Of a stretch of DNA of 32,000 bases, positions 1 to 19,981 are shown piece after piece (position 1 is the first letter of the stretch; each line of letters opens with the position of its first letter). Source of the DNA: Mycoplasma mobile 163K (lineage in GTDB: Bacteria > Bacillota_I > Bacilli_A > Mycoplasmatales > Metamycoplasmataceae); the NCBI RefSeq assembly GCF_000008365.1, contig NC_006908.1, positions 210,001 to 242,000 on the forward strand, in the 5' to 3' direction. The notes beneath the pieces were generated by a model. It had not been told where the DNA came from. It did not search any database and saw nothing but the letters and a program-made list of their open reading frames with translations. The position numbers were made by a program, and so were the translations under genes.

Positions 1-813
1 GAATACGATGCTATTGATCCTTTACAATTAAAAAAATCTTTAGAATCCAAAGAAATTGAAAATTTATTTTTTGCTGGACAAATAAATGGTACAAGTGGTT
101 ATGAAGAAGCTGCAGGTCAAGGACTTCTAGCAGGGATTAATGCTTCATTAAAGTTAGAAAATAGAGAAGCTTTAAATTTAAAAAGAAGTGATTCTTATAT
201 TGGAGTTTTAATTGATGATCTTACAACAAAAGGCACAAAAGAACCTTATAGAATGTTGACGTCTCGTGCAGAGTATCGCTTGCTTTTAAGAAATGATAAT
301 GCAGATATAAGATTATTAAAATATGCAAAATATGCCAAAACATTAACAGATAAAGAAATTGCTACTACAGAAGCTAAATATGATTTGATCACTAAAAAAA
401 TTGCTGAATTAGAAAATCAATATATTTCAATTAATGATCCTCTTGCAAAAAAATATAATCTTGCAAATAGCACTTCATTTTTACAATTAATTTCAAGGCA
501 TGAAATTGATATCAAAGAAATTGTTGGCAATTTCCCTTTTCTAGAAGAATTAAGCACTAATGTAAGATTAGATGGTTATATAAAAAAACAATTGAGTCAA
601 GCAGATAAAATGCTTCGATTAGAAAATTTAAAACTTCCAGAAGATTTGAATTATGATAATGTTGTTAATTTAGCATTTGAAGCAAGACAAAAACTTAAAA
701 TGATCAAACCTCTAACAATTGGACAAGCATCTAGAATAAGCGGAATCAATCCTGCAGATATTCAAATGCTAATGTTTCATTTAAATTTAAAAGTAGTAAA
801 AAATGAAAATTAA
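1..813 (+). CDS. mnmG: tRNA uridine 5-carboxymethylaminomethyl modification enzyme MnmG (GidA), C-terminal part; 5' end lies outside the window
   Basis: Frame +1 is open from base 1. Translation [48 protein letters not shown]...[25 protein letters not shown]...[16 protein letters not shown] matches conserved MnmG blocks. TAA stop at 811-813. Confidence 0.95.
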
Positions 814-1234
814 TCTTATCGCAGTTGGAAAACTTGAGAAAGAATATTTAAATTTATATCTTTCATATTTAAAAAAAATAAGTTTTTTCGCAACTATAAA
901 CCTTATTGAAATAAAAGAAATAAATGAAAAAAATATTGACCTTAAAAAGCAAAAAGAAACTGAACTTATTATTGAAAAAATTCCTAAAAACTCCAAAGTA
1001 TATCTTTGTTCTTTACAAGGACAAGAAAAAACTAGTGAAGACTTTTCATTATTATTTAATGAAGATAATTTAACATTTGTAATAGGTGGTTCAAATGGAG
1101 TTGATGAATCAACTTTTTTGCACAAAATATCTTTTTCAAAAAACACCTTTCCCCATCAATTGTTTAGAATTTTATTAGTCGAACAAATATATAGATCCTT
1201 TACAATTTTAAAAGGAATAAAGTATCATAAATAA
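803..1234 (+). CDS. rlmH: 23S rRNA (pseudouridine1915-N3)-methyltransferase RlmH (SPOUT family)
   Basis: 143 aa. [16 protein letters not shown]...[14 protein letters not shown]...[33 protein letters not shown] is the typical RlmH/YbeA end-to-end pattern. The ATG overlaps the mnmG stop region by 11 nt. Confidence 0.9.
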
Positions 1235-1263
1235 ATATAGTAGCATTTATTTTTTTATTTTAT

Positions 1264-1269
1264 TATAAT
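1264..1269 (+). promoter_or_regulatory. candidate -10 box (TATAAT) only 9 nt upstream of the 1279 ATG; implies a leaderless or near-leaderless mRNA
   Basis: TATAAT at 1264-1269. No Shine-Dalgarno between it and the ATG at 1279. Confidence 0.3.
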
Positions 1270-1278
1270 AGTATAGAC

Positions 1279-2214
1279 ATGAACAAATGAACAAATAAAA
1301 AGATTTCTTTTATCTCTGTATTAATAGCAACTTCAGTTGCATTTACAATAATTGGTGCAGGTGCTTTAGCAATAACTTCTTTACCCAATATTAAGTTATC
1401 TTTTGCGGGTTTACCAGTAAAAATTACTGGATATTTATTTGGGCCTTTAATAGGTTTTATTACAGGATTTCTAGCTGATTTATTGTCTTTTTTGTTCATT
1501 CCTTCTTTTTACAATCCATTATATTCTTTTGGATTAGCTTTAACAGGAGCAATTCCTGGGATTGTCGCCTGATTTTATTTTAAATTTGGAAAAAATTTGT
1601 TTAGTAAGGAAACAAAAATCCAAAGATACACGAATAAAATTATTTTTTACAAAAACTTCATATGATTTAATGAAAATAAAGAAGAAATTAAAACAATTGA
1701 AAAATACAATTTTTTAATTAATAAATATGAGAAAAAAATCATTTTGCTACAAAAGGCTGAATATTCAAATTCTATTTTAAATTTCAATTGAATAAGTTCT
1801 TTCATAATTATTTCCATTTTATTAATTGCAATAGTAACATTAATAACAAATTTACCAGATAGGTTTTTTGACTCTCCAATTTTTTTTAGAACTAGACCAT
1901 CTTTTTATTTATTTTCAATTTTAGGTTTAGCAATAATGATAGTTTTTATTAGTTATATGAGATTTAACTCCAAGCCAAAAACCTTTTTGAATATTGTTCC
2001 CATCATAATTTTTTCAGCATTAATTGAATTTTCAACAATAGCGGTAATAGCTTATGCAGATTCTATAACTCTGGGAATTGATTTTCAAATTTCATTAATT
2101 GGAACTTTGCTTTTATCCCCAATAAAAATATGAGGAAATTTAATTATTATTTTGATCACATATAATATTATTGCTCCATTAATTAAAAATAAACAAAGTA
2201 ATGGATGAGTATAG
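1279..2214 (+). CDS. polytopic membrane protein, ECF-transporter S-component-like, with a ~70-aa hydrophilic insertion (311 aa)
   Basis: A single frame runs from ATG 1279 to TAG 2212-2214 when in-frame TGA is read as Trp. The track shows only the 1936-2133 fragment. The N-terminal region ISFISVLIATSVAFTIIGAGALAI...GLPVKITGYLFGPLIGFITGFLADLLSFLF resembles the glycine-rich TM1-3 pattern of ECF S components. About 7 hydrophobic segments. Family assignment is by eye only. Confidence 0.45.
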
Positions 2215-2239
2215 TAAAATTACTTTTAATGAGGAAACT

Positions 2240-4753
2240 ATGGAAAAAAAATGAAATCTTAGCATAGAAAATTTAATTAGCAAAGAATTAGATTTAGAAA
2301 CAAAAATGCCTTACTTTGATAATTTAAATATTGATATTATTCAAGGTGAAATTGTGACTCTTTTTGATAAAAGAGATTTTGAATCTCGGAATATTATTAG
2401 TAATATTCTTAAAAATAAGTCTAAAAATTCAACTCATTCATTTTATTTAAATCAAACTATTAATGATGAAATAAAAGATGGAAACAAAGAGTATTTTTTA
2501 TCGAATTTTAATATTGATACTTTTGAAGATGATTCCTTAATTGGGATTCATAAAATTTTTGAAAATAATAACAATTTCTTTTTTTATGATTTATTTAAAA
2601 AACATTTAAAAGAAAATGAAAACATAAAAAATATTACAGATTTTTTCCAGGATATTTACCCAATTTACTATAAAGAATCATTTTTAAAACTAGAATCATT
2701 TTTGCTGTCTGAAAAATTAGATTTGCAAGAAACCTATTTTCAAAACTTAGAAAATTTTGTTCAAAAAAATAAAAAATTATTAAATTCATTTAAAGAAATT
2801 GATTTTGAAAATAAAAATAATAGAATTAGTTTCAAAAATTCTTATTTAAATTTTTTAGATGATTATTTAAATTTAAAAATTTCTAATTTGGAAAAAATAA
2901 GTTTACAAAAGAAAAACATTTTTAATTATATTTTTGAAAAAATTAATGAATTTAAGACAAAAGAATTTCAACTTGCAAGCAAAAAAATAAAAAAAGATGA
3001 ACTTCAAAAACAAATTGAATCACTAAAAGAAAGCAAAAGAGTTTTAGAGTCTAAAGAAAAAATTTCCGAGCTTTTAGAAAGTTTAAACAAGAAAAAGAGC
3101 AATTCAATTTTAAATAGAAAAAAAACTTCTAAAATTATTTGAAATTTCATTAAAAATTTCAAAAATAGCTATAAAATTTATAAAAAAGTTTCTTTTATGC
3201 AAGATAACAAGGAAATTAAATTTCATTTTTACAAACTTGCACTATTGAATAAAAAAACTTTTCAAAAATTTAAAAAAATGGGTTCTAGATCAGACTTATC
3301 TTGGTTATCTCAAAAAGATATAGTTGCTTTATCAAGAGATATAAGGGAATACAATAAAACTCTATGAGACCAATTAATTAATTCAACTAATTCTAACATG
3401 TCAAATAAAAATGTAAAAAAACACATTGATTACGAGTATTTGTTTTTATTCAAACCTTATGAAGCTATTTATTCATTGAATAAAAAAAATTTTAAAATTG
3501 AAGTAGAATCTATCAACAAACAAATTAACGAATATAAATTAATTTTGAAATCAAAGAAAAATATTCAACCTGAAATTAATGAAAAAAAACTTTATGATGC
3601 AACGCAAACACTAGAAACTTTTGTAGTGAATGAAAAATGGGAACAAGAAATTGAGTTTAAAAAATTAGCAGATAAAAACGAAATTTTAAACAAAGAAATT
3701 TCATTTGTTTTTAATAATATAAATGTTTTAAGTTTTCAAGAAAAAGATTTATTAAAATCTTTTAATGAACTTTATAATGAAATTTTTGAAGTAAATTTTA
3801 AAAATAATGATGAAAAAACATTAATGCAAATCATAAAAATTCACGAACAATTTGAAGATGCTGATAATGCATATAAAATGATGCAGCTTGATTTTGAAGA
3901 AATTATAAATCTTTCCTTTTCTAGGGATTTCAATTTCAAAGGAAATGCACTAGAAGAAGTTGTGAAAAAAGATTTTATTTATCAAGCACTATTAAAATTA
4001 GAAATTCCATATTATTTTTCTTATTTTAAAAAATTAAATCTTTGAAAATCTGAAAAATTAAATATTATAAATTTAATAATTTCACTTTTAATAAGTAAAA
4101 AATCTAAATTTATATTTGTTCAAGATAGATTTTTTTCTGAAACTCTTATGAAAGATAAGACTTTTATTTTGAATTTAAGAAAATTTGTAAAAAAAGAAAA
4201 CATAGGATTTTTTTTTAGGACATATTCAACACAAAATCTGGACCTGATTGCTGATAAAATTTTTGTCTCTTATTATGGAAAAATAATTGAAAAAGGAAAG
4301 ACTTTGGAAGTAATAAAAACTCCTATTCATCCCCAAACAAAACTTCTTTTGGAAAATGGCAATTTAAAAATAAATGATGAATCAATTAATTATTTGATTG
4401 ATTTAGTTCCAGGAGATATTTTGAAAATGTACAATGTTGAATCTACTAATCATTCTATACTTGCAAATGTTCATTATTTTACTAAATGGACAAATAAATT
4501 TCCTGATTCAAAAACTAAAACATTTTCATTTGTAAATTCACCAATTTTAAGTGAAAGAGAAATTGAAAAAATAAATACCAAATTTGAGTTGGAAGAAACA
4601 AAAATCATTGATATTTCGTATTTGACTAAATTAAATAGCCTTAAAAAATCTAATAAAAATTTATTTTTAACTAAAACTATTGATTTTCAAACAAATAGAA
4701 ATATAGATTTATTAACAAAAACATTTGCTACCAAAAAAGAAGAGAGAGTTTAA
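2240..4753 (+). CDS. OppF/OppD-type ABC nucleotide-binding-domain homolog with degenerate Walker A, signature, Walker B and H-loop and a roughly 450-aa insertion (837 aa)
   Basis: Track fragments 2306-3142, 3398-4045 and 4148-4753 are all in the same frame and are joined by TGA codons. ATG at 2240. The N-terminus WNLSIENL...FDNLNIDIIQGEIVTLFDKRDFESRNIISNIL aligns to the ABC pattern L.v.nL...l.nvsf.i..GE.lgLvGeSGsGKSTl. The C-terminus LWKSEKLNIINLIISLLISKKSKFIFVQDRFFSETL...IGFFFRTYSTQNLDLIADKIFVSYYGKIIEKGKTLEVIKTPIHPQTKLLLEN aligns to LSGGQ...LLIADEPTSALD...ISHDL...ADRv.VMY.GkIVE.G....i...P.HPYT..LL. Confidence 0.6.
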
Positions 4754-7273
4754 ATGGAAAAAATTTATAATCATAAAATTGTTGAAAAAGACAAAAATGA
4801 AAAATGGATTAAAAAAGAATATTTTTCAACTCACGATTTAACAAAAAAACCTTTTTCTATCTTGTTACCTCCTCCAAATGTAACAGGAAAATTACATATT
4901 GGGCATGCTTGAAATACAACTCTTCAAGATTTTTTAATTAGATTAAAAAGATTGCAAGGATATGATGTTTTGTGATTACCAGGAACTGATCATGCAGGTA
5001 TTGCGACACAAGCAAAAGTAGAAAAAAGATTATTGGATCAAAAAATTTTTAAAAGTGATTTAACAAAAGAAGAATTGTTTGAAAAAGCAATGGATTGAAA
5101 AAATGAATATGCAAACGAAATAAAAAAACAATGGTCAAAATTAGGTCTTGCATTAGATTATAAAAAAGAAAGATTTACATTAGATGAATTATCAAATAAA
5201 GCTGTAAATGATATTTTTGTTATGTTGTACAAAGATGGTTATATTTACAGAGGAAATAGAGCAATTTATTATGATACTTTTTTGCAAACATCTTTAAGCA
5301 ATATAGAAGTAATCAATGTTGAAAAAGAATCTAAAATGTATTACTTAAAATATTTTTTAGAAAATTCAAACTCTGAATATGTTTTAGTTGCAACTACAAG
5401 ACCAGAAACTTTAGCAAGTGATGTTGCTTTAATAATAAATCCTAATGACAAAAAAAATAGCCATTATTTGGGAAAAAACTTTGTGAACCCTTTAACTAAA
5501 AAAATTATCAAGATGCATAGTGATGACTATGCGATTATGAATTTCGGATCAGGAATTGTAAAAATTTCTGCTCATGATATGAATGACTTTGATGTAATTA
5601 AAAGATTAAATCTTGAAGTAATTGAAACAATAGATAAATTTGGAAAAATGACAAATGCGATTCCTGAATTCGAAAATATGTCTAGCCTAGAAGCAAGAGA
5701 AAACATTGTTTTGAAACTTAAAAAAGAAAACTTAATTGATAAAATTGAAAATATTAAATCAAATATAATAATGAGTGAAAGATCAAATACAGTTGCAGAA
5801 GTTTTGGTAATGCCTCAATGATTCATTAAAATGGAGCCTTTTTCAAAAATGATTTTGAAAAAAATTCAGAATGAAAATGAAGATGACAAAAAAGTTTTAT
5901 TTTTTCCTAAAAAATTTGAAAATATTTTGAAAATATGAATGCAAGAAGCTCATGATTGAAACATTAGTAGACAATTGTGGTGAGGTCATAAAATTCCTGC
6001 TTGATATGATGAAAAGGGAAATATTAAAGTTCAAACTACTTCTCCAGGTTCTAATTGAACACAAGATCAAGATGTTTTGGATACTTGATTTAGTAGTGGC
6101 ATTGCACCTTTTTCATTTTTGAATTGACCTCAAAAATCAGAGTTCTTAAAAAGGTATTATCCTACAAGTGTAATTGTGACAGCTTATGATATTATTTTCT
6201 TTTGAGTTGCAAGAATGTATTTTATGGGTATTTATTCTATGAAAAATATCCCTTTCAAAAAAGCTTTAATACATGGTTTAATTAGAGATGAACAAGGAAG
6301 AAAAATGTCAAAATCATTGGGAAACGGAATTGATCCAATGGATTTAATTGAAAAATATGGAGCAGATTCTTTGAGATGATTTTTAATGACAAATTCAACA
6401 CCTGGGCAAGACATAAGGTTTAATTATGATAAGATTGAATCTGCTTGATCTTTAATTAATAAGATTTGAAATATTTCAAGATATATTAAAATGTTAGATT
6501 CTGATAAAAAAGAAATAATTCCTGAGGAAATTGAACAAAATGCAAATTCTTGGATTTTAGAAAAATTTGAAAATTTGAAAATTTTAATATATGAAAAATC
6601 TGAAACATTTGAATTTAGTGTTATTGGAAAAGAAATTTTCAAATTCATAAATGAAGATTTTTCTAGTGTTTATATAGAAATTATCAAAGGGACTGATTCA
6701 AAAGAATTTATTTCTAAAATTTGATCTAACTTTTTAATTCTATTGCATCCTTTTTTACCTTTTTTAACAGATCATTTATATTTTGAGTTAAACAAAAAAG
6801 AACTTTTAGAATCAGATTTTTTTGAATTAAAATCAAGGAAAAACAATTTATTTATTGATGAAACAATTGAAATTATTTCCACACTAAGAGAATATAGAAC
6901 AAGGTTCAATTTGAGTCATAAAATAGATTTAAATTACAATCTTGTTTCAATTAATAATTCAAATCAATGTGATTTTAATTTAGATTTAAAAAAATATCTT
7001 ATAAAAAAAATGGCAAATGCTAATTTTTCTGAAAATGGGCAAATATTTTTTAAACTAAACAATTATGAACTTAGACTTCAAATTCCTGAAGAAGTGAAAA
7101 AAGAAGAAGAAACAATAAGAATAAAACGAATTCTTTTTTTAGAATCTGAGATAAAGCGCTCCCAATCAATTTTATCAAACGAAAAATTTATTAATAATGC
7201 CTCGGAAATAAAAGTAAAAGAAGAAAAAGAAAAACTTGAAAAATATATAAAAGAATTTGAAGAAATAAAATAA
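4754..7273 (+). CDS. valS: valine--tRNA ligase
   Basis: 839 aa after joining same-frame fragments across TGA. HIGH motif [59 protein letters not shown] motif [17 protein letters not shown], and a C-terminal coiled coil. The ATG directly abuts the upstream TAA (4751-4753). Confidence 0.97.
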
Positions 7274-7360
7274 TCAATTCGTTTAAATAATTTTATTTTT
7301 CAAAAATTTTTAATTATGTTTTTTCATTAATGAAAATTTTAAAAATTCAATTAAATTATA

Positions 7361-7366
7361 TATAAT
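7361..7366 (+). promoter_or_regulatory. candidate -10 box (TATAAT) for the DUF2188-like gene and folD
   Basis: TATAAT at 7361-7366 in the 120-nt valS-downstream spacer. AAGGAG Shine-Dalgarno at 7384-7389, ATG at 7394. Confidence 0.35.
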
Positions 7367-7393
7367 AATGTAATAAAAATAACAAGGAGTTCT

Positions 7394-7567
7394 ATGATTA
7401 AATACGTAGTAAACCATGATGGCAAGTGAGCTGTAAAAAATGCGAATGCTGAAAAAGTTACAAAAGTTTGTGACACTCAAAAAGAAGCGATAGATTATGC
7501 AAAATCTTTAGATAATACATCTGCAATTATGATTCAAGGTAGAGATGGGAAATTTAGAAAAGGTTAA
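7394..7567 (+). CDS. small DUF2188-like protein (57 aa)
   Basis: Not in the ORF track because it is short and contains TGA. MIKYVVNHDGKWAVKNANAEKVTKVCDTQKEAIDYAKSLDNTSAIMIQGRDGKFRKG matches the DUF2188 pattern (hV.p..dgW.Vk.eg..r....f.tk.EAi..Ar.la......l.ihg.dG.ir). Strong SD AAGGAG lies 5 nt upstream. Confidence 0.65.
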
Positions 7568-7583
7568 AACTTTTCTTTTTTTT
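7556..7583 (+). terminator. rho-independent terminator-like hairpin spanning the DUF2188-like stop codon, 14 nt before folD
   Basis: AGAAAAG (7556-7562) pairs with CTTTTCT (7570-7576), with a 7-nt loop GTTAAAA, followed by T7 (7577-7583). Confidence 0.45.
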
Positions 7584-7596
7584 ATTAGTTAAAAAC

Positions 7597-8439
7597 ATGA
7601 TCATTTTAGATGGTAAAAAATTGTCTCAAAAAGACACAATTTTTTTAAAAGAAAAAGTAAATCAATTTAAAATAAAGCCAGTTTTTACAATTGTTCAAGT
7701 AGGAAATTTATTTTCTTCAAATAAATATATAAAAACTAAAATGGACAAAGCATTAGAAATTGGTGTTGTTTCTAGATTGATTAAAATTCCTGAATCGATA
7801 TCTGAAAAGGATTTGATATCTATTATTGAAGAAGAATCAAAAATTTCTCATGGTTTAATAGTTCAATTACCACTACCATTGCAATTTGATCAATCTAAAA
7901 TTTTAAATTCTGTCCCAATTACAAAAGACATTGATGGCTTATCAGAAAAAAATTCAAAAAATCTTTACTCAGGAAAATCCTGCATTCAACCAGCAACAGC
8001 TAGAGGAATTATTGATTTGATAAAGGAATACAATTTTACTATTAAAGACAAAAAAGTATATGTAATTGGAGAAAGTAATTTAGTTGGTAAACCGATAAAA
8101 GAATTGTTTAAGCAAGCTGGAGCAATTGTTAAAAGTTTTAACATTAACACAGGAATCAAAGGAAGTGAAGAAGCTGACATATTAATTGTTGCAGCTGGTC
8201 ATCCAAATTTAGTGAAACCGGAAAATGTTAAAAATAATAGTATTGTAATTGATGTTGGAATAAATTCAATCGGAGAAAACGATAAGATGATTGTTACAGG
8301 AGATGTAGATTTTTCAAATGTTAAAACTAAAGTAAAGGCCATTTCTCCAGTACCAGGTGGTGTTGGCCCAATGACAGTTATTTCTTTATTTAAAAATTTA
8401 ATTGAAATTTTTGAAAAATATTTATTAGATGATAATTAA
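7597..8439 (+). CDS. folD: bifunctional methylenetetrahydrofolate dehydrogenase / methenyltetrahydrofolate cyclohydrolase
   Basis: 280 aa. MIILDGKKLS...VQVGNLFSSNKYIKTKMDKALEIG...GLIVQLPLP...KDIDGL...PATARGIIDLI...VIGESNLVGKP...DVGIN...GDVDF...ISPVPGGVGPMT are canonical FolD blocks. Confidence 0.95.
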   Translation: MIILDGKKLSQKDTIFLKEKVNQFKIKPVFTIVQVGNLFSSNKYIKTKMDKALEIGVVSRLIKIPESISEKDLISIIEEESKISHGLIVQLPLPLQFDQSKILNSVPITKDIDGLSEKNSKNLYSGKSCIQPATARGIIDLIKEYNFTIKDKKVYVIGESNLVGKPIKELFKQAGAIVKSFNINTGIKGSEEADILIVAAGHPNLVKPENVKNNSIVIDVGINSIGENDKMIVTGDVDFSNVKTKVKAISPVPGGVGPMTVISLFKNLIEIFEKYLLDDN

Positions 8440-10006: not shown

Positions 10007-10025
10007 TTAATTAAAAGGAGAAATT

Positions 10026-10907
10026 ATGAAAAAAACAGATAAAAATCAAACAGGAAAAGAAATAATGAAAAAAGAATTACTTATTAAAACAAATGAGCAA
10101 GATATTAACTTAGCTCCTAAATCTCAATCAACATCTAAAAAACTTTCGAATACTTGAAATTATGAAGAATTAATTAACCAAACAAAAGAAATTGATGTCA
10201 ATTCAAAAATAGTCAAAACTGAATTAGAATATGTTGAGGAAGATTCTCGTTTAAGAAAAGAGAAAATTGAATTAATTCAAAAAAATTATGACAATTTAAA
10301 TGCAAAACCTTTAGTTGGGGTTGATTTATATGAAAGTTACTCATTAGTTTTAAACAAATCTGCGTGAAATTACAACGAAATTATTCAAAGAGACACTCAA
10401 TTAACTATTTTAGATATGGCTTTACAAGTTCATCTATTTCTTTATGAAGGAAAAATAATTGATATTGCTCATATTCAAAAAATAATAAAAACATTTGTAT
10501 TAAATGTTTTTGCAAAAATTATTAAAGGGGTCCCAATTGTTTTAAACCCGATTATCATCTTTGATTCAGTTCGTTTTGATAAATCAAAAATTCTTCCTGT
10601 TGCTGTTGCAAATCCAAAATTAATGCCACCATTGGGTGTTCAAGATTGAGACACAATTGTAGATGAAGATGAAGAAATTAAAAAAATTGTTTCAACATTT
10701 ATCAAATTACTTGAAAATGCTCTAACAGTTGGCCATGAAGTGGAATTTTTTCAAGACACTTTATTAGTAAGAAATGTTGATGGAATAACTTCTTTATATG
10801 TTTCTGAAAAAGCAGCTCAGGTTTTTAACAATAGTGTAATTGATCAAATTATGCCTGAAAAACCAAAATATGAGGCACTAGAAGATCCTTTTAGCAATAA
10901 GAAATAA
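10026..10907 (+). CDS. F1-like ATPase cluster gene 2: soluble orphan protein (293 aa), no recognisable domain
   Basis: ATG at 10026 after SD AAGGAG (10014-10019). Same frame as track fragment 10416-10649, joined across TGA. TAA at 10905-10907. Contains an internal repeat W-N-Y-x-E-[LI]-I-[NQ] (aa 44 and 114). Confidence 0.75.
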
Positions 10908-10931
10908 TAGAAAAATCAATTAGGAGAAAAA

Positions 10932-11942
10932 ATGAAAAGAAAAGATGTCGAAGAGAAAAAACAAAATCTCGATTTCTATCATAACTATATTGATATTTCA
11001 AAAATAAAAGTATTACAAAAGTTGAATGAAGAAATTGCAAGTTTAAATATGTTAAAACTTCAAAAGGGAGAAAGTCATTATTTATTGAATAGAATTATCA
11101 ATAAATGATTTCCTCATAACTCAAATATCTATCATGAATTGCATCATGAAAATGATAGGAAAGAATTATACATATTAATCGATCCTAAAAAATTAGATTT
11201 ATTCTCAGAAGCTCTTTTACGTAAATTAAGTCAAACAGTAAAAGAAAGAATTAGACCTGATAAAGATTTTGTAATAACTGTAGGAACAAATGTTGATAAC
11301 ATTGCTAGACAATTAAATTTAAATATTATTGATCATTATGATCTGGATTTATTTAATCAAATTGATGATTTTGCAAACAGAATTGGAGAACTTGTTGATG
11401 TTGGTTTAAATAATAAAATTTTCAACTATGTTTCTTTGTTGATTGCTCAATCTAGTACAAAAAATAATGGTGGCCTTGTTCAAGAAAGAATTGTTCCTTT
11501 TAATACAAAAAATATTAAAGTTTGAAATGAATCAAATCAAGATGAAAACGGAATGCCGATTGTTTCTGAAGAAAATGAAGTTGAAATAATGTCATATGCG
11601 AAAACATTGAGAAATATAAATTTTAAAAAGCACACATGATTACCAAATATCAATACTTTTTATGAGCAATTTGTTAAGTCAGTCTTCAAACAAGAACTTT
11701 TTGAGTTTAAATCCATTAGTGTTATTGAAGAATTAAAAATCGAATTACAACTTTTAGATGAAAAGAAAAAGCGTTTAGAAGAACAAAAGAAAGAACTTAT
11801 CCTTAAATGAAATAGAGCAAGAAAAGAAGAAGCTACTTTGCAATCAACACTTTTATTTAGTGCTTTTAAAGTTAAGAATCAAAAATCAACAAGAGATGAA
11901 ATTTTGAGATTATCAAAAGGAAAAAATAGGAATGGAGCATAG
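10932..11942 (+). CDS. F1-like ATPase cluster gene 3: ATP synthase gamma-subunit-like protein (336 aa)
   Basis: ATG at 10932 after SD AGGAG. Same frame as fragment 11139-11525, joined across TGA. The C-terminus ELILKWNRARKEEATLQSTLLFSAFKV mirrors the gamma C-terminal helix signature (L..YN[KR]ARQ..IT.E..EI..GA). The central block FVITVGTNVDNIARQLNLNII resembles the gamma Rossmann-like core. Confidence 0.6.
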
Positions 11943-11944
11943 TA

Positions 11945-12541
11945 ATGAATAATATCAGTATCCATACAACAAATCCAAGAGATTTAAAAAATATCTATGA
12001 TCACTTTAATTATAAAATTTCAAAGGCAACTATTTATTCAATAGATAATAAAACTCTTGTCTTAAATTCAAATACTTCTTTTAATAAAGATTTAATACAA
12101 ACTTTTGATGTTGCTTTGTTAACATTGGAAATTTCAATAAAAAGTGACTTTATTGGTCAAGTTTTTGAAGATCAAAAAACCATTAAAACTCATGTACTTG
12201 TAGAAAACTTAATGCTAATGATTAATAATAAAGAATTTTTATTTTTAGTAAATGGAAAATATGATGTAATTTCAGAAAATAAAATTGTTCAAATTTTGCA
12301 AGAAGTAAGTGCAAAAGAATTTTCAAAGGAAAGTGTTCTTGAAAAAATTGAAAATGAATTAACTTTAAGTTCAAATCTATCTGTAATAAGAGCATACAAT
12401 CAATTATCTGATTATTTCACAGCTGAAAAATATTCTTTCAATAATAATGTTTTTAAATTATTAGCTCATCAAGCGGAAGCATTGAAAATTGCAAAGAAAA
12501 TTTTACTTAAAAACTTATCAATAAATGAAATTTCTAGATAA
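11945..12541 (+). CDS. F1-like ATPase cluster gene 4: 198-aa soluble protein, possible epsilon-like subunit (assigned by position only)
   Basis: Intact ORF starting 2 nt after the gene 3 stop. The beta-rich N-terminal half (ISIHTTNP...KATIYSIDNKTLVLNS...THVLVENLMLMINNKEFLFLVNG) and helical C-terminal half fit an epsilon-type layout. No diagnostic motif seen. Confidence 0.4.
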   Translation: MNNISIHTTNPRDLKNIYDHFNYKISKATIYSIDNKTLVLNSNTSFNKDLIQTFDVALLTLEISIKSDFIGQVFEDQKTIKTHVLVENLMLMINNKEFLFLVNGKYDVISENKIVQILQEVSAKEFSKESVLEKIENELTLSSNLSVIRAYNQLSDYFTAEKYSFNNNVFKLLAHQAEALKIAKKILLKNLSINEISR

Positions 12542-12552
12542 AAGGGAGAAAA

Positions 12553-15500
12553 ATGAAAAAAAGAACAAAAAAAATTTTAATAGGATCGTCATCTGCGTTG
12601 TTAGTTGGACTAACAAGTACTTTTGTTATTTCTCAGCCAATTTTAGATTCATCTAAAGAAAATTTAAATTTAAACAAAGCTATTTCAGGCAATGTTAATG
12701 GGCCAGTAATTATTTCTAATGAAAGCACAATAAATGTTTTCCCTACAACTTATTTTTATTTGTCTAATTTTGATGCTAATTCTCCTGAAAGATTTACCCA
12801 ATGAAATAACACAAACCAAGCTTTAACAGAATTTAAAAAAAGAGCTGAAAACCAATCTTTAGCTACAAATTCAGTTGCTTCAGAAGCTTTAAATTCTTTG
12901 ATTGAAATTTATGAAAATCTTAGAGTAGTTGAATTTAATTTAAATCAAGCTGCTCGTTTAGATGGAATTAATTCACAATTATTTCAAGATTCTTTTAACC
13001 AAAAAAAAGATGAGGAAAAATTTTTAGGTGTTACTCCAATTGAAACAGTGAATTTGAATGTAACTAGTGCAAGATCTGTTTTTGAAACAAACGATCCTAA
13101 TGCAGAACTTCAAATTTTAATTAGAAGTTTGAATGGATTTACTATAAATTCAAATAGCACGCTTTCGCTTAGAGGAAATTTAAACCCAGATGCAAATTCA
13201 GTTCCTGCAACAACTCCTGAAATTGTTAATTTAGCAAATGGTGTTCCGACCACTCCTGATTTTGTTAATTTAGGAAATTCGACAACTTCAGGAGTTTCTA
13301 CAATTGTAGAAATTGCTGAAATTGATGAATTGACATTGTCTTCTAATAGAAATATTATTCTTGATTTTTCATATACAGGAATACAAAATGGTGCAAGTAC
13401 AAATAATTTTAATGATGCTGTTTCTTTACCAGAAACTACAAGAGGAAAATTAGTTTTAATTAATGAAAATGGAGAATTAGCAAATGCTACTTCTATTTCA
13501 AGTTATGCTTCAAATTTAAATGTTTTTGGTAGATGAATGCCTTCATCAACTAATTCTGTTTCTCTTGAAAATACACTAGCAAGACCACATTTTATGAATA
13601 ATTTTATTATTGAAAAAGTAAATTCCACTTATAAAATTTTTGTTAGTTTAAAACCAAAAGAACTTATTAGTAATGTTTCGGTTTCTCAAGGAAGTGCAAT
13701 TCTATCAAAATTTGGAATCTTAAATACTCAGATTTTAAGCACACAACCTTTAATCCAAAATAATGCAAATGCTATTTTTACAATTCCATTTTTTGAAAGT
13801 AATGCAACTACACAAACAATTCCAAATGCTCCAAGTTTAGGTCAAAATCAAAAATTAGATGTATATCTAGGAAATGGTGCAACTTTTACTTCACAAGGTA
13901 TTTTTATTAAAGGTCTTAATGATAATGTATTCACTAGATATGATGTTGTAGCACCCAATGCTGCAGGTGGCGGAAGAATTGCTCCTAATTTAGAAATTGT
14001 AACTTCACAAAATAATGTTTCATCTCCAACAATCACTCCAGGAAATATTCAAGTAAATCCTACAACCTTAGGTTTAGGAAGCGGAACAGAAGATTTGAAA
14101 GTCTTGGATATTAATGTTAGTACTTCAATTTTTTCTCAATTCAATTTTAGTTTACAGGAAATTACATTCAATAATAATCATATTGCTATAACTGATCAAG
14201 TCACTGATGCAGCAAATTCAAATAGTAGAAATTACAATCCTATTTATTCACTTGTTAGAGAAACAGAAGAAATTACAAATTCACTTATTTCAAAGAAAAT
14301 CTTTTTTAGAGCTCCTTTTGTAAATTCAAATAGTGTATTAGGAAACCCTGATCAAAGATTTCCTAGAAATTTAGTTTCTGCAACACAAATTGAAAATCAA
14401 AACCAAGCTTCTTTAGTTAATTTATCTCATATTTTAAATGGTTGAATTTCAGGTAATCCTATTGTAAATTTATCTTTTGATCAAGATCTTAAAGTGATAA
14501 CTTTTACTGAAGAATTAAATAGATTCACAAGAATTAGACTAGATCAAATATCAAGAGAAACAGGAATTAGTGGAAATAGAATTTATTCTTCTTTAAGAAA
14601 TACTTTTGAAAATTATGAAAATTTAAAAACTCAAATAATTTCAGGTTATAGAAAAATAGAAAATAATCCTTTTAATAGTGCTTTGGGATCAACAGCAATT
14701 ATTGATAATATTTTACAATTAGTTCCTGGTTCAGTTCGTGAAGATTCATTACAATTAATAGCTAGTGCAGATCCTGTATCCAATTCAAGCTCTTCAAGAT
14801 TAAATTATGACACAGTGACTTCAAATGAATTAAATAAATTAATCATAGAAGCTTATTCTACTTTACAAAATAGAGTAAAATCAGCAATTGATAGTGTTTA
14901 TGCAAGGGCAATTTCATCCTATTTAAATGGGGACATTGTGAACAATGATGAAAAGAGAATTCCTAATTTAAATTCAATGAGCTTATCTACTTCAACTCCA
15001 AATGGTGAAATTCCATTAATTAACATTAATAGAAATCAATCTGTTTTATCTGATTTACCAGGTGTAGTTAAAGGTAATCAAATATTTAAAGGAATCTTTG
15101 AATGATTATCATCAAATAATCTTGGAATTGGTTTATATTCTTCAACAACTCCAATAATTAATAGAACAGCAGAATCTTTTAGTTTGAGTCAAATTTTTGA
15201 AGAATTTAGAACAACAGATCCAAAACTATCAATTTTATCTGATTCAGCTTTTTTTGGAAATGATTTAACAGGAAATATTGAAGTAGAAAAAGCATTAAAT
15301 TTATACAAAATATTATTTAGATTCTTTGGAACAGATTTAAATACATATCAAGCAAATATATTACTTAATGGAAATCAAATTAATTTTTCAGATTTTGAAA
15401 ACCAAAATACAAATAACATTAGTGTTTCTCGAATAGTTAGAAATATGTATTCGAATTTAAACCTTCAAAATAAAACAATTAATTTTGATGTATTTGGAAT

Positions 15501-16029
15501 AAATATTAAAGTTAATTCATATAATGCATTAGTAAGTGCTGCAAATCTTAAATTTACCCTAGATAATATTAGATCTCTGAATTCAAACAATAGAGCTTTA
15601 TTAGAAGCTATAAATACTCAATTAAGAGAAAATTTATTAGATATTAATAATTTAGCTTCTTATTCAATTTTAATTGATGAAACAAATTTGGATAAATTTA
15701 CACAGGATTTTAGTAATGTTTCAACAAACCAAAGCATAAGATCAAGACTTGAGAATTCAGATATTATAAATAAACCATTATTTGTATCTAATTCATTACA
15801 AAGTAATTTTGGAACAAGTATAAATCAAAGTGCCCCAATTGTTGCATTAATATTATTTGCTTTGGTTGGATTTGCATTAATAAGCACTGCAGGTTATGTA
15901 TTAGTTGCAAGAAAAAAAACTATTACATTTAAAAATAGCAATAAAGGATTAAAATTAACCTTAAGTTCAATGATTATTTTAGGAATAATACTATTGTTAG
16001 TAATTGTACCTATTGCAATTATTTTGTAA
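12553..16029 (+). CDS. F1-like ATPase cluster gene 5: 1158-aa membrane-anchored surface protein (N-terminal signal anchor plus C-terminal TM hairpin; 3 TM)
   Basis: Five track fragments (12553, 12898, 13537, 14494, 15184) are all in one frame and are joined by TGA codons at 12802, 13534, 14443 and 15103. N-terminus MKKRTKKILIGSSSALLVGLTSTFVISQP has no lipobox Cys. The C-terminus APIVALILFALVGFALISTAGYVLVARKKTITFKNSNKGLKLTLSSMIILGIILLLVIVPIAIIL gives two TM helices around a basic loop. The ~1050-aa middle is N/S/T-rich. Confidence 0.85.
13201..13281 (+). repeat. imperfect tandem duplication inside the surface-protein gene (VPATTPEIVNLANG / VPTTPDFVNLGNS)
   Basis: GTTCCTGCAACAACTCCTGAAATTGTTAATTTAGCAAATGGT is followed directly by GTTCCGACCACTCCTGATTTTGTTAATTTAGGAAATTCG. 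Units are 42 and 39 nt, both in frame. Confidence 0.7.
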
Positions 16030-16053
16030 TAAAGGAATTTGAAAGGAAAAAAT

Positions 16054-19981
<3,928 letters not shown>

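What the first reader, a model, noticed from the sequence alone, without database searches (positions are those of the whole stretch)
2240..4753. Intact 837-codon OppF-like ABC domain with every catalytic motif destroyed and a huge coiled-coil-like insertion: a maintained pseudo-ATPase
SEEN: the ends of the protein align convincingly with an Opp/Dpp-type nucleotide-binding domain, including the C-terminal P.HP.T..LL tail. Every catalytic motif is replaced. Walker A GxxGxGKS/T is DKRDFESR (nt 2360-2389). The signature LSGGQ is LWKSE. Walker B hhhhDE is FIFVQD followed by RFFSETL instead of PTSALD. The H-loop ISHDL is RTYSTQNL. Roughly 450 aa of K/E/N-rich, heptad-like sequence are inserted between the two halves. 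The frame stays open for 837 codons in a genome where TAA/TAG are frequent off-frame, which argues for selection rather than decay. No opp permease or substrate-binding gene is adjacent. The only neighbour is the ECF S-component-like gene 25 nt upstream. ESTABLISHED: mycoplasma OppF proteins are known to carry large insertions but normally retain the catalytic motifs. INFERENCE: this is a non-catalytic NBD repurposed as a scaffold or regulator, or the inactive partner of a heterodimeric ABC ATPase.
Basis: partly seen in the sequence, partly recalled or inferred. Interest (0 to 1): 0.7.

Follow-up and report, generated by a model that had tools for sequence, protein, structure and literature searches.

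The report
Dead OppF-like ATPase kept by selection
This Mycoplasma mobile gene encodes a full-length copy of the peptide-transporter ATPase OppF that has lost every ATP-handling motif yet is kept intact by selection, always just after a folate-type membrane transporter gene; NCBI already names the family, but nobody knows what it does.

Summary
Read with genetic code 4 (Mycoplasma mobile, TGA=Trp), window 2240-4753 is one intact 837-codon gene. It aligns end to end with the long-form OppF proteins of mycoplasmas, including their ~430-aa helical insertion. Walker A, Q-loop, signature, Walker B and H-loop are all replaced, and no cryptic P-loop exists. It is not a pseudogene: an uncultured relative has four intact 838-codon variants with dN/dS 0.06-0.11. 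It does evolve much faster than its neighbours (38% identity against 71-77%).

It is not new as an object. NCBIfam NF045976, "MAG1360 family OppF-related protein", matches it at 390 bits (cutoff 200), and RefSeq already uses that name. The large insertion is inherited from OppF, not acquired by this protein.

What I add is a conserved gene pair. A FolT-like ECF S-component gene sits 5-34 nt upstream in M. mobile, its relative, M. citelli and a Mycoplasma sp., with different surrounding genes in the two clades.

Best reading: a non-catalytic OppF paralogue acting as a structural or regulatory subunit, probably with that S-component. The partner and role are inferred, not shown. Interest is moderate.

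The parts
2240..4753 (+). Complete CDS of the pseudo-OppF: 837 aa plus a TAA stop, read with code 4 and containing four TGA=Trp codons. NCBIfam MAG1360 family OppF-related protein.
   Evidence: NF045976 scores 390 bits against a cutoff of 200 and covers 1-794 of the protein and 2-775/777 of the model.
2240..2662 (+). N-terminal NBD half (aa 1-141). It holds beta-strands 6-13, 27-34 and 38-43, the degenerate Walker A DKRDFESR at nt 2366-2389, and the degenerate Q-loop TFEDD at nt 2519-2533.
   Evidence: Alignment A1, AF2 model, coordinates. Region aa 59-140 has pLDDT below 50 and only 12-28% identity to the ortholog.
2663..3952 (+). Helical insertion of about 430 aa (aa 142-571), rich in K/E/N. 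It is homologous to the insertion of long-form mycoplasma OppF.
   Evidence: Absent from 18 compact NBDs. Long helices H192-263, H266-320 and H448-519. True OppF P0098 matches NF045976 over 113-760. The A2 profile aligns end to end with P0098 and P0119.
3953..4519 (+). C-terminal NBD half plus an oligo_HPY-like tail (aa 572-760). Remnants: signature LWKSE (nt 4040-4054), Walker B FIFVQD (4109-4126), D-loop RFFSETL (4127-4147), H-loop RTYS (within 4208-4240), GKIIEKGKT (4277-4303) and PIHPQT (4322-4339).
   Evidence: Foldseek top hits are Dpp/Opp NBDs at probability 1.0.
4520..4750 (+). Family-specific C-terminal extension (aa 761-837). It is absent from OppF and 45% identical to the ortholog. 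The model has low confidence here.
1279..2214 (+). Conserved upstream partner gene: a FolT-like ECF S-component (311 aa) with an inserted helical hairpin at about aa 110-159. It ends 25 nt before the pseudo-OppF start.
   Evidence: TIGR04518 E 8.5e-14 and PF07155 E 1.4e-5, both below cutoff. AF2 pLDDT 85. Foldseek top hits are FolT 5jsz, 7nnt (TMt 0.70), 5d0y and 4z7f, then RibU. Adjacency is conserved in L002, L006 and L013.
4754..7273 (+). valS. Its ATG directly follows the pseudo-OppF stop codon (0-nt gap), so the genes are probably co-transcribed. It is context, not part of the system.
   Evidence: The same order is seen in the relative and, with one intervening gene, in M. californica and M. 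elephantis.

Best explanation
SHOWN: window 2240-4753 encodes a selectively maintained paralogue of the long-form, insertion-bearing OppF of Metamycoplasmataceae. It belongs to NCBIfam family NF045976 (MAG1360 family OppF-related protein). It keeps the two-lobed NBD architecture, the ~430-aa helical insertion and the Opp/Dpp-type C-terminal region. It has lost Walker A, the Q-loop Gln, the LSGGQ signature, the Walker B Asp-Glu pair and the H-loop His.

INFERRED from the motif loss (no assay was done): it cannot bind or hydrolyse ATP in the ABC manner.

INFERRED from gene arrangement: it acts as a non-enzymatic structural or regulatory subunit. The most likely partner is the FolT-like ECF S-component encoded immediately upstream in the same transcription unit. 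It could tether, gate or stabilise that membrane protein through its helical insertion and NBD-like head. It is less likely to energise transport or to serve in the Opp permease.

The confidence of 0.5 is for the whole statement. The identity part (a dead, maintained OppF paralogue) is about 0.9, and the S-component partnership is about 0.35.
For: Identity: NF045976 scores 390 bits against a cutoff of 200 over the full length. RefSeq uses that name for the identical 837-aa M. mobile protein.

OppF descent: the X+P0002 profile aligns with genuine long-form OppFs from position 7 to 759 at 64-70 bits, while the best shuffled controls score below -38. The C-terminal half matches 4fwi, DppF and OppF. 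Foldseek ranks Dpp/Opp NBDs first at probability 1.0.

Motif loss is shared across the family: X, its ortholog P0002, M. citelli L006_802 and Mycoplasma sp. L013_802 all lack the motifs that OppF P0098 and P0119 keep.

Selection: four 838-codon variants in the relative are all intact, with pairwise dN/dS 0.06-0.11. For one pair there are 21 synonymous against 7 non-synonymous changes, Fisher p = 6e-11. M. citelli against Mycoplasma sp. gives 66.8% identity and dN/dS 0.14, both 802 aa.

Partner gene: an S-component homolog lies 25, 34, 5 and 5 nt upstream on the same strand in M. mobile, the relative (L002), M. citelli (L006) and Mycoplasma sp. (L013). The flanking genes differ between the clades: mnmG-rlmH ... 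valS in one, SNase ... deoD-pdp in the other. The upstream protein is structurally FolT-like. No terminator-like site lies between the genes.

Against canonical docking on a permease: the Q-loop and helical-subdomain region is the least conserved (12-28% identity) and the lowest-confidence part of the model.
Against: No direct evidence exists for any interaction, for expression, or for lack of nucleotide binding.

The S-component homolog occurs without a recognisable pseudo-OppF neighbour in 4 of 10 contexts sampled: M. columbinasalis, M. caviae, and two metagenome-assembled genomes (MAGs). Two more, M. californica and M. elephantis, have only a 700-aa positional equivalent with no detectable similarity.

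Most contexts were reached through the S-component, so I could not check whether pseudo-OppF genes also occur away from S-components. M. agalactiae MAG1360 itself could not be retrieved.

The X+P0002 profile does not detect the M. citelli member once composition bias is corrected. P0002 scores only 118 bits against NF045976. So orthology between the M. mobile lineage and the Mycoplasmopsis MAG1360 proteins rests on the NCBIfam model plus synteny, and independent degeneration of OppF copies is not excluded.

S-components normally work with EcfAA'T, and no precedent exists for an Opp-type NBD partner.

The best-conserved NBD part is the Opp/Dpp C-terminal region, which would equally suit binding to OppD.

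The X model is only moderate (pLDDT 65.6, pTM 0.46).
Confidence: 0.5

Rival explanations
1. It is an inactive stand-in for OppF. The protein binds OppD, and possibly OppBC, through its conserved Opp/Dpp C-terminal region. This forms a complex that cannot complete either ATP site, so it would act as a brake, an assembly factor or a regulator of oligopeptide import.
For: It descends directly from long-form OppF. The best-conserved NBD segment is aa 641-720, the Opp/Dpp-specific region including GKIIEKGKT and P-HP-T. In one MAG the S-component homolog sits directly upstream of oppA-oppB-oppC-oppD (L005). That hints at an ancestral neighbourhood with opp genes.
Against: It is never adjacent to opp genes in the four genomes where it was found. 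The permease-coupling region (Q-loop and helical subdomain) is the least conserved and worst-modelled part. Losing both Walker A and the signature would disable both composite sites, unlike known degenerate-site heterodimers, which keep one working site (general ABC knowledge). The rest of the M. mobile genome could not be read, so whether a canonical oppBCDF exists there was not checked.
Confidence: 0.2
2. It is a free-standing cytoplasmic scaffold with a Rad50/SMC-like layout, meaning split ABC head halves joined by long helices. The dead head would serve only as a dimerisation or folding module, the function would be unrelated to transport, and the link to the S-component gene would be only co-transcription.
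For: Very long predicted helices lie between the two NBD halves. Rad50 chains appear in Foldseek over about 640-690 aligned columns. The sequence evolves fast, as is typical of proteins constrained mainly by helical pattern.
Against: The Rad50 match has probability of only about 0.5 and rmsd above 80 angstroms. Heptad periodicity is weak. The same insertion is present in ordinary, catalytically intact OppFs that sit in transporters. This reading does not explain the conserved 5-34 nt adjacency to the S-component gene in two different neighbourhoods.
Confidence: 0.12
3. It is a decaying pseudogene, or an annotation artefact, whose frame is open by chance.
For: All catalytic motifs are lost. Divergence is very fast, with dN 0.55 against 0.14-0.22 for the neighbours. 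Pfam finds no ABC_tran domain.
Against: There are 0 in-frame stops against 72 and 81 in the other frames, and shuffles reach at most 133 codons. Lengths are intact at 837, 838 (four variants) and 802 (two species). dN/dS is 0.06-0.14 at low to moderate divergence. Codon-position GC is gene-like.
Confidence: 0.02
4. It is a cryptic but functional ATPase. The motif columns were misaligned, or an unconventional nucleotide site exists.
For: P0002 keeps a Lys at the Walker A lysine column (DERKSEKQ) and has a chance AFLISGKT at 614-621. The M. citelli protein keeps ILIEDDP at the Walker B position.
Against: HMMER alignments to PDB NBDs place the degenerate residues in register with GESASGKS and THD. 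Relaxed patterns find no P-loop, signature or H-loop in X. The stray matches are not conserved between orthologs. PF00005 gives no hit even at E<=10.
Confidence: 0.03

Closest known systems
NCBIfam NF045976, MAG1360 family OppF-related protein (equivalog model used by PGAP/RefSeq)
   Same: X scores 390 bits against a cutoff of 200 over the whole model, and RefSeq already gives the identical protein this name. The M. citelli neighbour-of-S-component protein scores 684 bits.
   Different: Nothing differs at the family level. However, X's own ortholog P0002 scores only 118 bits, below the cutoff. Direct profile similarity between the M. mobile lineage and the M. citelli member is not detectable after bias correction. 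I found no paper describing the family's function.
Long-form OppF of Metamycoplasmataceae, for example M. agassizii WP_371246728 (762 aa) and M. gallopavonis WP_119572124 (815 aa); also NF043078 MMSYN1_0168 OppF
   Same: End-to-end collinearity, including the insertion of about 430-450 aa between the Q-loop region and the signature, and the C-terminal HPYT/WT tail.
   Different: Those proteins keep GESGSGKT, FSGGQ, IIADEP and AHD and score 240-260 bits on Opp/Dpp ATPase models. X has none of the motifs and scores at most 26 bits on those models. It is not next to oppBCD. It carries an extra C-terminal extension of about 77 aa.
Compact Opp/Dpp nucleotide-binding subunits with solved structures (T. 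tengcongensis 4fwi; E. coli DppD/DppF 8z1v-8z1y; OppD/OppF 8z21)
   Same: The fold of the NBD core and the C-terminal region matches (Foldseek probability 1.0 over about 150 columns; sequence E 1e-5 to 1e-3).
   Different: They are about 330 aa, have no insertion, are active ATPases, and are part of BCDF permease complexes.
ABC proteins with a degenerate nucleotide-binding site, for example heterodimeric exporters and CFTR NBD1 (from general knowledge; reviewed in PMC3971661, which appeared but which I did not read)
   Same: Catalytic residues are lost in an NBD that is nevertheless retained.
   Different: In those systems only one composite site is degenerate and it still binds ATP. Here Walker A, signature, Walker B and H-loop are all gone in a stand-alone polypeptide.
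Rad50/SMC-type ABC ATPases
   Same: The topology is similar: an N-terminal Walker A half and a C-terminal signature/Walker B half separated by long helices. Rad50 7zr1 appears in Foldseek.
   Different: The match is weak (probability about 0.5). No hinge or zinc hook was identified. Descent is clearly from OppF. Rad50 and SMC are active ATPases.

Membership tests
NCBIfam NF045976 MAG1360 family OppF-related protein | Whole-protein HMM score at or above the curated cutoff (200 bits) with full-length coverage | tested here: met
   390.3 bits, E 1.5e-116, protein 1-794 against model 2-775/777. The source database gives the same name.
NCBIfam NF045976 MAG1360 family OppF-related protein | Direct sequence similarity to another bona fide member, independent of the NCBI model | tested here: inconclusive
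   The X+P0002 profile against M. citelli L006_802 scores -44 bits after a 128-bit bias correction, no better than shuffles. MAFFT identity is 18%. Shared position after the S-component gene supports orthology.
ABC transporter nucleotide-binding domain (Pfam PF00005 ABC_tran) | Walker A GxxGxGK[ST] | tested here: not met
   DKRDFESR occupies the aligned column. There is no relaxed match anywhere.
ABC transporter nucleotide-binding domain (Pfam PF00005 ABC_tran) | LSGGQ signature, Walker B hhhhDE, Q-loop Gln, H-loop His | tested here: not met
   The aligned residues are LWKSE, FIFVQD, FEDD and RTYS.
ABC transporter nucleotide-binding domain (Pfam PF00005 ABC_tran) | Pfam HMM hit at the gathering threshold | tested here: not met
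   No PF00005 hit even at E<=10.
ABC transporter nucleotide-binding domain (Pfam PF00005 ABC_tran) | NBD fold | tested here: met
   AF2 places the core strands at 6-43 and 624-687. Foldseek top 14 hits are ABC NBDs, all at probability 1.0. Model confidence is moderate (pLDDT 65.6).
ABC transporter nucleotide-binding domain (Pfam PF00005 ABC_tran) | ATP binding and hydrolysis | not testable with these tools
   Needs a biochemical assay. Absence is inferred from the motif loss.
Opp/Dpp-type ATPase subunit (OppF/DppF; oligo_HPY C-terminal domain PF08352/TIGR01727) | oligo_HPY domain at the curated threshold | tested here: not met
   PF08352 scores 12.5 bits against 27.1. TIGR01727 scores 16 bits against 37.6. 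The motif PIHPQT partly retains P-HPYT.
Opp/Dpp-type ATPase subunit (OppF/DppF; oligo_HPY C-terminal domain PF08352/TIGR01727) | Encoded with oppB, oppC and oppD | tested here: not met
   No opp genes in the 32-kb window or next to the orthologs.
Long-form (insertion-bearing) mycoplasma OppF | Homologous insertion of about 430-450 aa between the Q-loop region and the signature | tested here: met
   End-to-end alignment with P0098 and P0119. P0098 matches NF045976 across 113-760.
ECF transporter ATPase (EcfA/EcfA') | Best similarity to EcfA models and encoded with ecfT | tested here: not met
   All of the best NBD hits are Opp/Dpp/Sap/Nik types. There is no ecfT or ecfA in the window.
ECF S-component, folate (FolT) type: the upstream partner gene 1279-2214 | S-component fold and family HMM | tested here: inconclusive
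   The fold criterion is met: AF2 pLDDT 85, and Foldseek's top hits are FolT 5jsz, 7nnt (TMt 0.70), 5d0y and 4z7f, then RibU, but with E 0.1-1.3. The HMMs fall below cutoff: TIGR04518 51.6 against 60, and PF07155 25.6 against 26.7. Substrate was not tested.

The most novel reading that the evidence does not exclude
A catalytically dead, OppF-derived NBD has been recruited as a dedicated cytoplasmic partner of a FolT-like ECF S-component in Metamycoplasmataceae. That would be an S-component that works with, or is regulated by, a non-ATPase ABC-like subunit, for example one that controls its access to the shared EcfAA'T module or anchors it. It would be a hybrid between the type-I importer and ECF branches of the ABC superfamily that has not been described.
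Probability: 0.15. Interest if true: 0.7.

Novelty: already known. Interest (0 to 1): 0.38.

Why it matters
As an object, this gene is already catalogued. NCBI curates the family and names this very protein, so the finding does not reveal a new kind of element.

It matters in a smaller way. Fully motif-less, stand-alone ABC domains kept under selection are uncommon. Minimal genomes rarely keep an 837-codon gene without reason. The function of this family is undescribed in the literature I could search.

The conserved pairing with a FolT-like S-component gives a concrete, testable lead for a family that currently has only a name. It also shows that the long helical insertion of mycoplasma OppF, itself unexplained, can persist and remain under selection after catalysis is lost. 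That suggests the insertion has a role of its own.

Tried and rejected
- Two genome-contig scans and one metagenome scan found no relatives: nothing, and only a Clostridiaceae OppF. The source genome itself was not retrievable, so I could not look for the canonical opp operon or ecfAA'T of M. mobile, nor fetch M. agalactiae MAG1360.
- Literature searches for MAG1360, OppF-related and MMOB1560-1590 gave zero hits. Broader OppF, mycoplasma and ECF searches gave nothing relevant.
- I tested whether the 700-aa proteins in the same slot in M. californica and M. elephantis are diverged family members. They have no NCBIfam hit, hhalign probability 0.3%, and hmmsearch scores no better than shuffles. 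Homology is therefore not shown, and I left them as positional equivalents only.
- The promoter scan showed no enrichment over shuffles, and the only terminator-like site lies inside the S-component gene.
- Rfam found nothing, so there is no THF riboswitch.
- phmmer with default filters rejected the true family member L006_802 at the bias filter. Negative HMMER results on these K/N-rich proteins should therefore be read with care.
- Between-species dN/dS values (0.37-0.49) are unreliable because dS is at or above 1. I rely on the low-divergence comparisons instead.
Full report
SOURCE AND READING FRAME

The window has about 24% GC. The table-11 ORF list breaks the region at TGA codons. With table 4 the frame is open from 2183 to 4753, with in-frame TGA codons at 2252, 3140, 3365 and 4043. 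The 837-aa product starting at the ATG at 2240 is identical to a RefSeq protein of Mycoplasma mobile on a 777,079-bp contig.

The frame has no TAA or TAG, against 72 and 81 in the other two + frames. In 500 shuffles the longest open frame was 133 codons. The open frame is therefore not a chance event.

WHAT THE PROTEIN IS

Pfam finds no ABC_tran domain, only a sub-threshold oligo_HPY match. NCBIfam gives a full-length hit to NF045976, "MAG1360 family OppF-related protein", at 390 bits against a cutoff of 200. It also gives weak hits (E about 1e-6) of residues 608-727 to OppF, DppF and SapF models.

An exhaustive phmmer search of 1.84 billion representatives found one full-length ortholog cluster: P0002, 838 aa, 38% identity, E 8e-144, from SRA assemblies of an uncultured relative. 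All other hits were genuine Opp/Dpp ATPases matching residues about 610-710.

Among those hits are long-form OppFs of M. agassizii (P0098, 762 aa) and M. gallopavonis (P0119, 815 aa). They carry the same large insertion but keep GESGSGKT, FSGGQ, IIADEP and AHD.

A profile of X plus P0002 aligns with these OppFs from position 7 to about 759 at 64-70 bits, whereas 400 shuffled controls score below -38. In the other direction, P0098 matches the MAG1360 model across residues 113-760. So X is a paralogue of long-form OppF, and the insertion was inherited from OppF rather than newly acquired.

MOTIFS

Aligned columns, with coordinates:

| Motif | True OppF | X | P0002 |
|---|---|---|---|
| Walker A | GESGSGKT | DKRDFESR | DERKSEKQ |
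| Q-loop | FQDP | FEDD | FDQN |
| Signature | FSGGQ | LWKSE | LWRTK |
| Walker B | IIADEP | IFVQDR | IYINNE |
| H-loop | AHD | TYS | TYT |
| C-terminal motif | HPYT | HPQT | HKYS |

HMMER alignments to solved NBDs place the same residues in register. The M. citelli and Mycoplasma sp. family members also lack Walker A, the signature and the H-loop His. Relaxed patterns find no alternative P-loop. The only GKT in X lies in GKIIEKGKT, which aligns with OppF GKIVEEGET. This rules out the "misaligned motifs" escape.

STRUCTURE

AlphaFold2 with a 26-sequence alignment gives a moderate model (pLDDT 65.6, pTM 0.46). Strands 6-13, 27-34 and 38-43 form the N-terminal part of the head, and strands 624-687 the C-terminal part. 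Between them lie very long helices, including 192-263, 266-320 and 448-519. Residues 59-140 have pLDDT below 50.

Foldseek against the PDB ranks Dpp/Opp NBDs first (4fwi, 8z1v-8z1y, 8z21; probability 1.0). Rad50 appears over about 640 columns at probability about 0.5.

The insertion, about aa 142-571, is absent from 18 compact NBDs. It is 47% K/E/N/D/Q and has only 3 Pro and 2 Gly. Heptad periodicity exceeds shuffles at p<=0.05 in only two of nine helices. "Long helical insertion" is therefore a safer description than "coiled coil".

SELECTION

Four variants of the relative's gene are all 838 codons and intact. Pairwise dN/dS is 0.06-0.11 by my own Nei-Gojobori implementation with code 4. One pair has 21 synonymous against 7 non-synonymous changes, Fisher p = 6e-11. 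The M. citelli and Mycoplasma sp. copies are both 802 aa and 66.8% identical, with dN/dS 0.14.

The protein is also the fastest or nearly the fastest evolving gene in its neighbourhood. Identity between M. mobile and the relative is 38%, against 71-77% for mnmG, rlmH, the S-component and valS. The corresponding dN is 0.55 against 0.14-0.22. Conservation is lowest in residues 81-120 (12%). It is highest in parts of the insertion, the C-terminal NBD region and the family-specific tail (40-50%). The gene is maintained, but under looser constraint than housekeeping genes, as expected for a domain that no longer needs a catalytic site.

GENOMIC CONTEXT

In the window the order is mnmG, rlmH, a 311-aa membrane protein (1279-2214), X, valS and folD, all on the + strand. 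The gaps around X are 25 nt upstream and 0 nt downstream, with no terminator-like site between the genes. The relative has the same order.

The membrane protein hits ECF S-component models just below threshold (TIGR04518 E 8.5e-14, PF07155 E 1.4e-5). It gives a confident AF2 model (pLDDT 85). Its best PDB matches are FolT structures 5jsz, 7nnt (TMt 0.70), 5d0y and 4z7f, followed by RibU. It has an extra helical hairpin at about residues 110-159.

I looked up the contexts of its homologs:
- M. citelli (L006) and a Mycoplasma sp. (L013): SNase, then the S-component, then an 802-aa protein 5 nt downstream, then deoD and pdp. The 802-aa protein of L006 scores 684 bits on NF045976. L013's copy scores 549 bits on a profile containing X, P0002 and L006.
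- M. californica (L008) and M. elephantis (L010): these keep the mnmG, rlmH, S-component ... valS frame. The slot after the S-component holds a 700-aa K/N-rich protein with no detectable similarity to X.
- M. columbinasalis, M. caviae and two MAGs: these have the S-component without such a neighbour. In one MAG it lies directly upstream of oppA-oppB-oppC-oppD.

So the S-component and pseudo-OppF pair recurs in two divergent clades with different flanks, which suggests a functional link. It is not universal, however, and most of my sampling started from the S-component side.

INTERPRETATION

Shown: X is an OppF-derived, motif-less NBD paralogue that selection keeps intact.

Inferred from motif loss: it has no ABC-type ATP binding or hydrolysis.

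Inferred from conserved adjacency and likely co-transcription: it acts together with the FolT-like S-component as a structural or regulatory subunit.

The alternative, that it binds OppD as a dead OppF substitute, is supported by the well-conserved Opp/Dpp C-terminal region. It is weakened by the absence of opp neighbours, by poor conservation of the permease-coupling region, and by loss of both Walker A and the signature, which would leave no complete ATP site. A free-standing Rad50-like scaffold is possible but weakly supported. The pseudogene and cryptic-ATPase readings are effectively excluded.

NOVELTY

The protein and its family are already curated and named by NCBI, so I rate it as already known. 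I found no publication on its function.

LIMITS

- HMMER's bias correction is severe on these K/N-rich sequences.
- The dN/dS values rest on few substitutions at low divergence and on saturated dS between species.

Noticed in passing
window 10011-19981 (+): This is the M. mobile gliding-motor internal F1-like ATPase cluster. 10911-11942 is MMOB1630 family (424 bits), 11930-12541 is MMOB1640 family (223 bits), and 16033-17640 is the MMOB1660 alpha-like subunit (840 bits). 17624-19981 is a 784-aa beta-like subunit with an N-terminal extension of about 300 aa. 12538-16029 encodes a 1158-aa membrane-anchored protein that I did not classify. By gene order the pseudo-OppF would be about MMOB1580, which is an inference.
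   Followed up: partly
window 1279-2214 (+), aa ~110-159: The FolT-like S-component is about 130 aa longer than solved FolT proteins (311 against 155-177 aa). It carries a confidently predicted extra helical hairpin after the third helix. All 46 homologs found (272-343 aa) are similarly long, whether or not a pseudo-OppF gene follows. Its membrane topology and role are unknown.
   Followed up: partly
L008:6017-8119 (M. californica) and L010:6024-8135 (M. elephantis): In the conserved mnmG, rlmH, S-component ... valS frame, the slot occupied by the pseudo-OppF in M. mobile holds a 700/703-aa K/N-rich ORF. It has no NCBIfam hit and no detectable similarity to X or OppF. The two copies are 44% identical with dN/dS about 0.37. 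It is either an ortholog diverged beyond recognition or a replacement.
   Followed up: yes
L005:6001-12957 (ENA MAG, ERZ4740364): Here a 43%-identical homolog of the S-component sits directly upstream of an OppA-like lipoprotein gene (886 aa), oppB, oppC and oppD. This is a second, different link between this S-component family and Opp genes. The locus ends before any oppF could be seen.
   Followed up: no
P0002 / L001:140-2656: The clear ortholog of X in the uncultured relative scores only 118 bits on NF045976, below the 200-bit cutoff and below the score of a genuine OppF (P0098, 144 bits). PGAP would therefore leave it unnamed. The high score of X itself (390 bits) may mean that the model's seed includes the M. 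mobile sequence.
   Followed up: partly
window 1-8439 (+): Several folate-linked genes lie on one strand: mnmG (whose enzyme uses methylene-tetrahydrofolate, from general knowledge), the FolT-like S-component gene, and folD at 7597-8439. No THF riboswitch or any other Rfam family was found in the window.
   Followed up: partly
window 4043-4045: The Trp in the signature remnant LWKSE is encoded by TGA and is conserved as Trp in the ortholog (LWRTK). Any table-11 reading therefore truncates the protein exactly at the former signature motif.
   Followed up: yes
L011:8338-9975: In one Metamycoplasmataceae MAG the gene upstream of the S-component encodes a 545-aa protein with an N-terminal MAG3090-family domain (52 bits, below the cutoff of 70), a long N/Q/P-rich low-complexity middle and a C-terminal transmembrane helix.
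   Followed up: no
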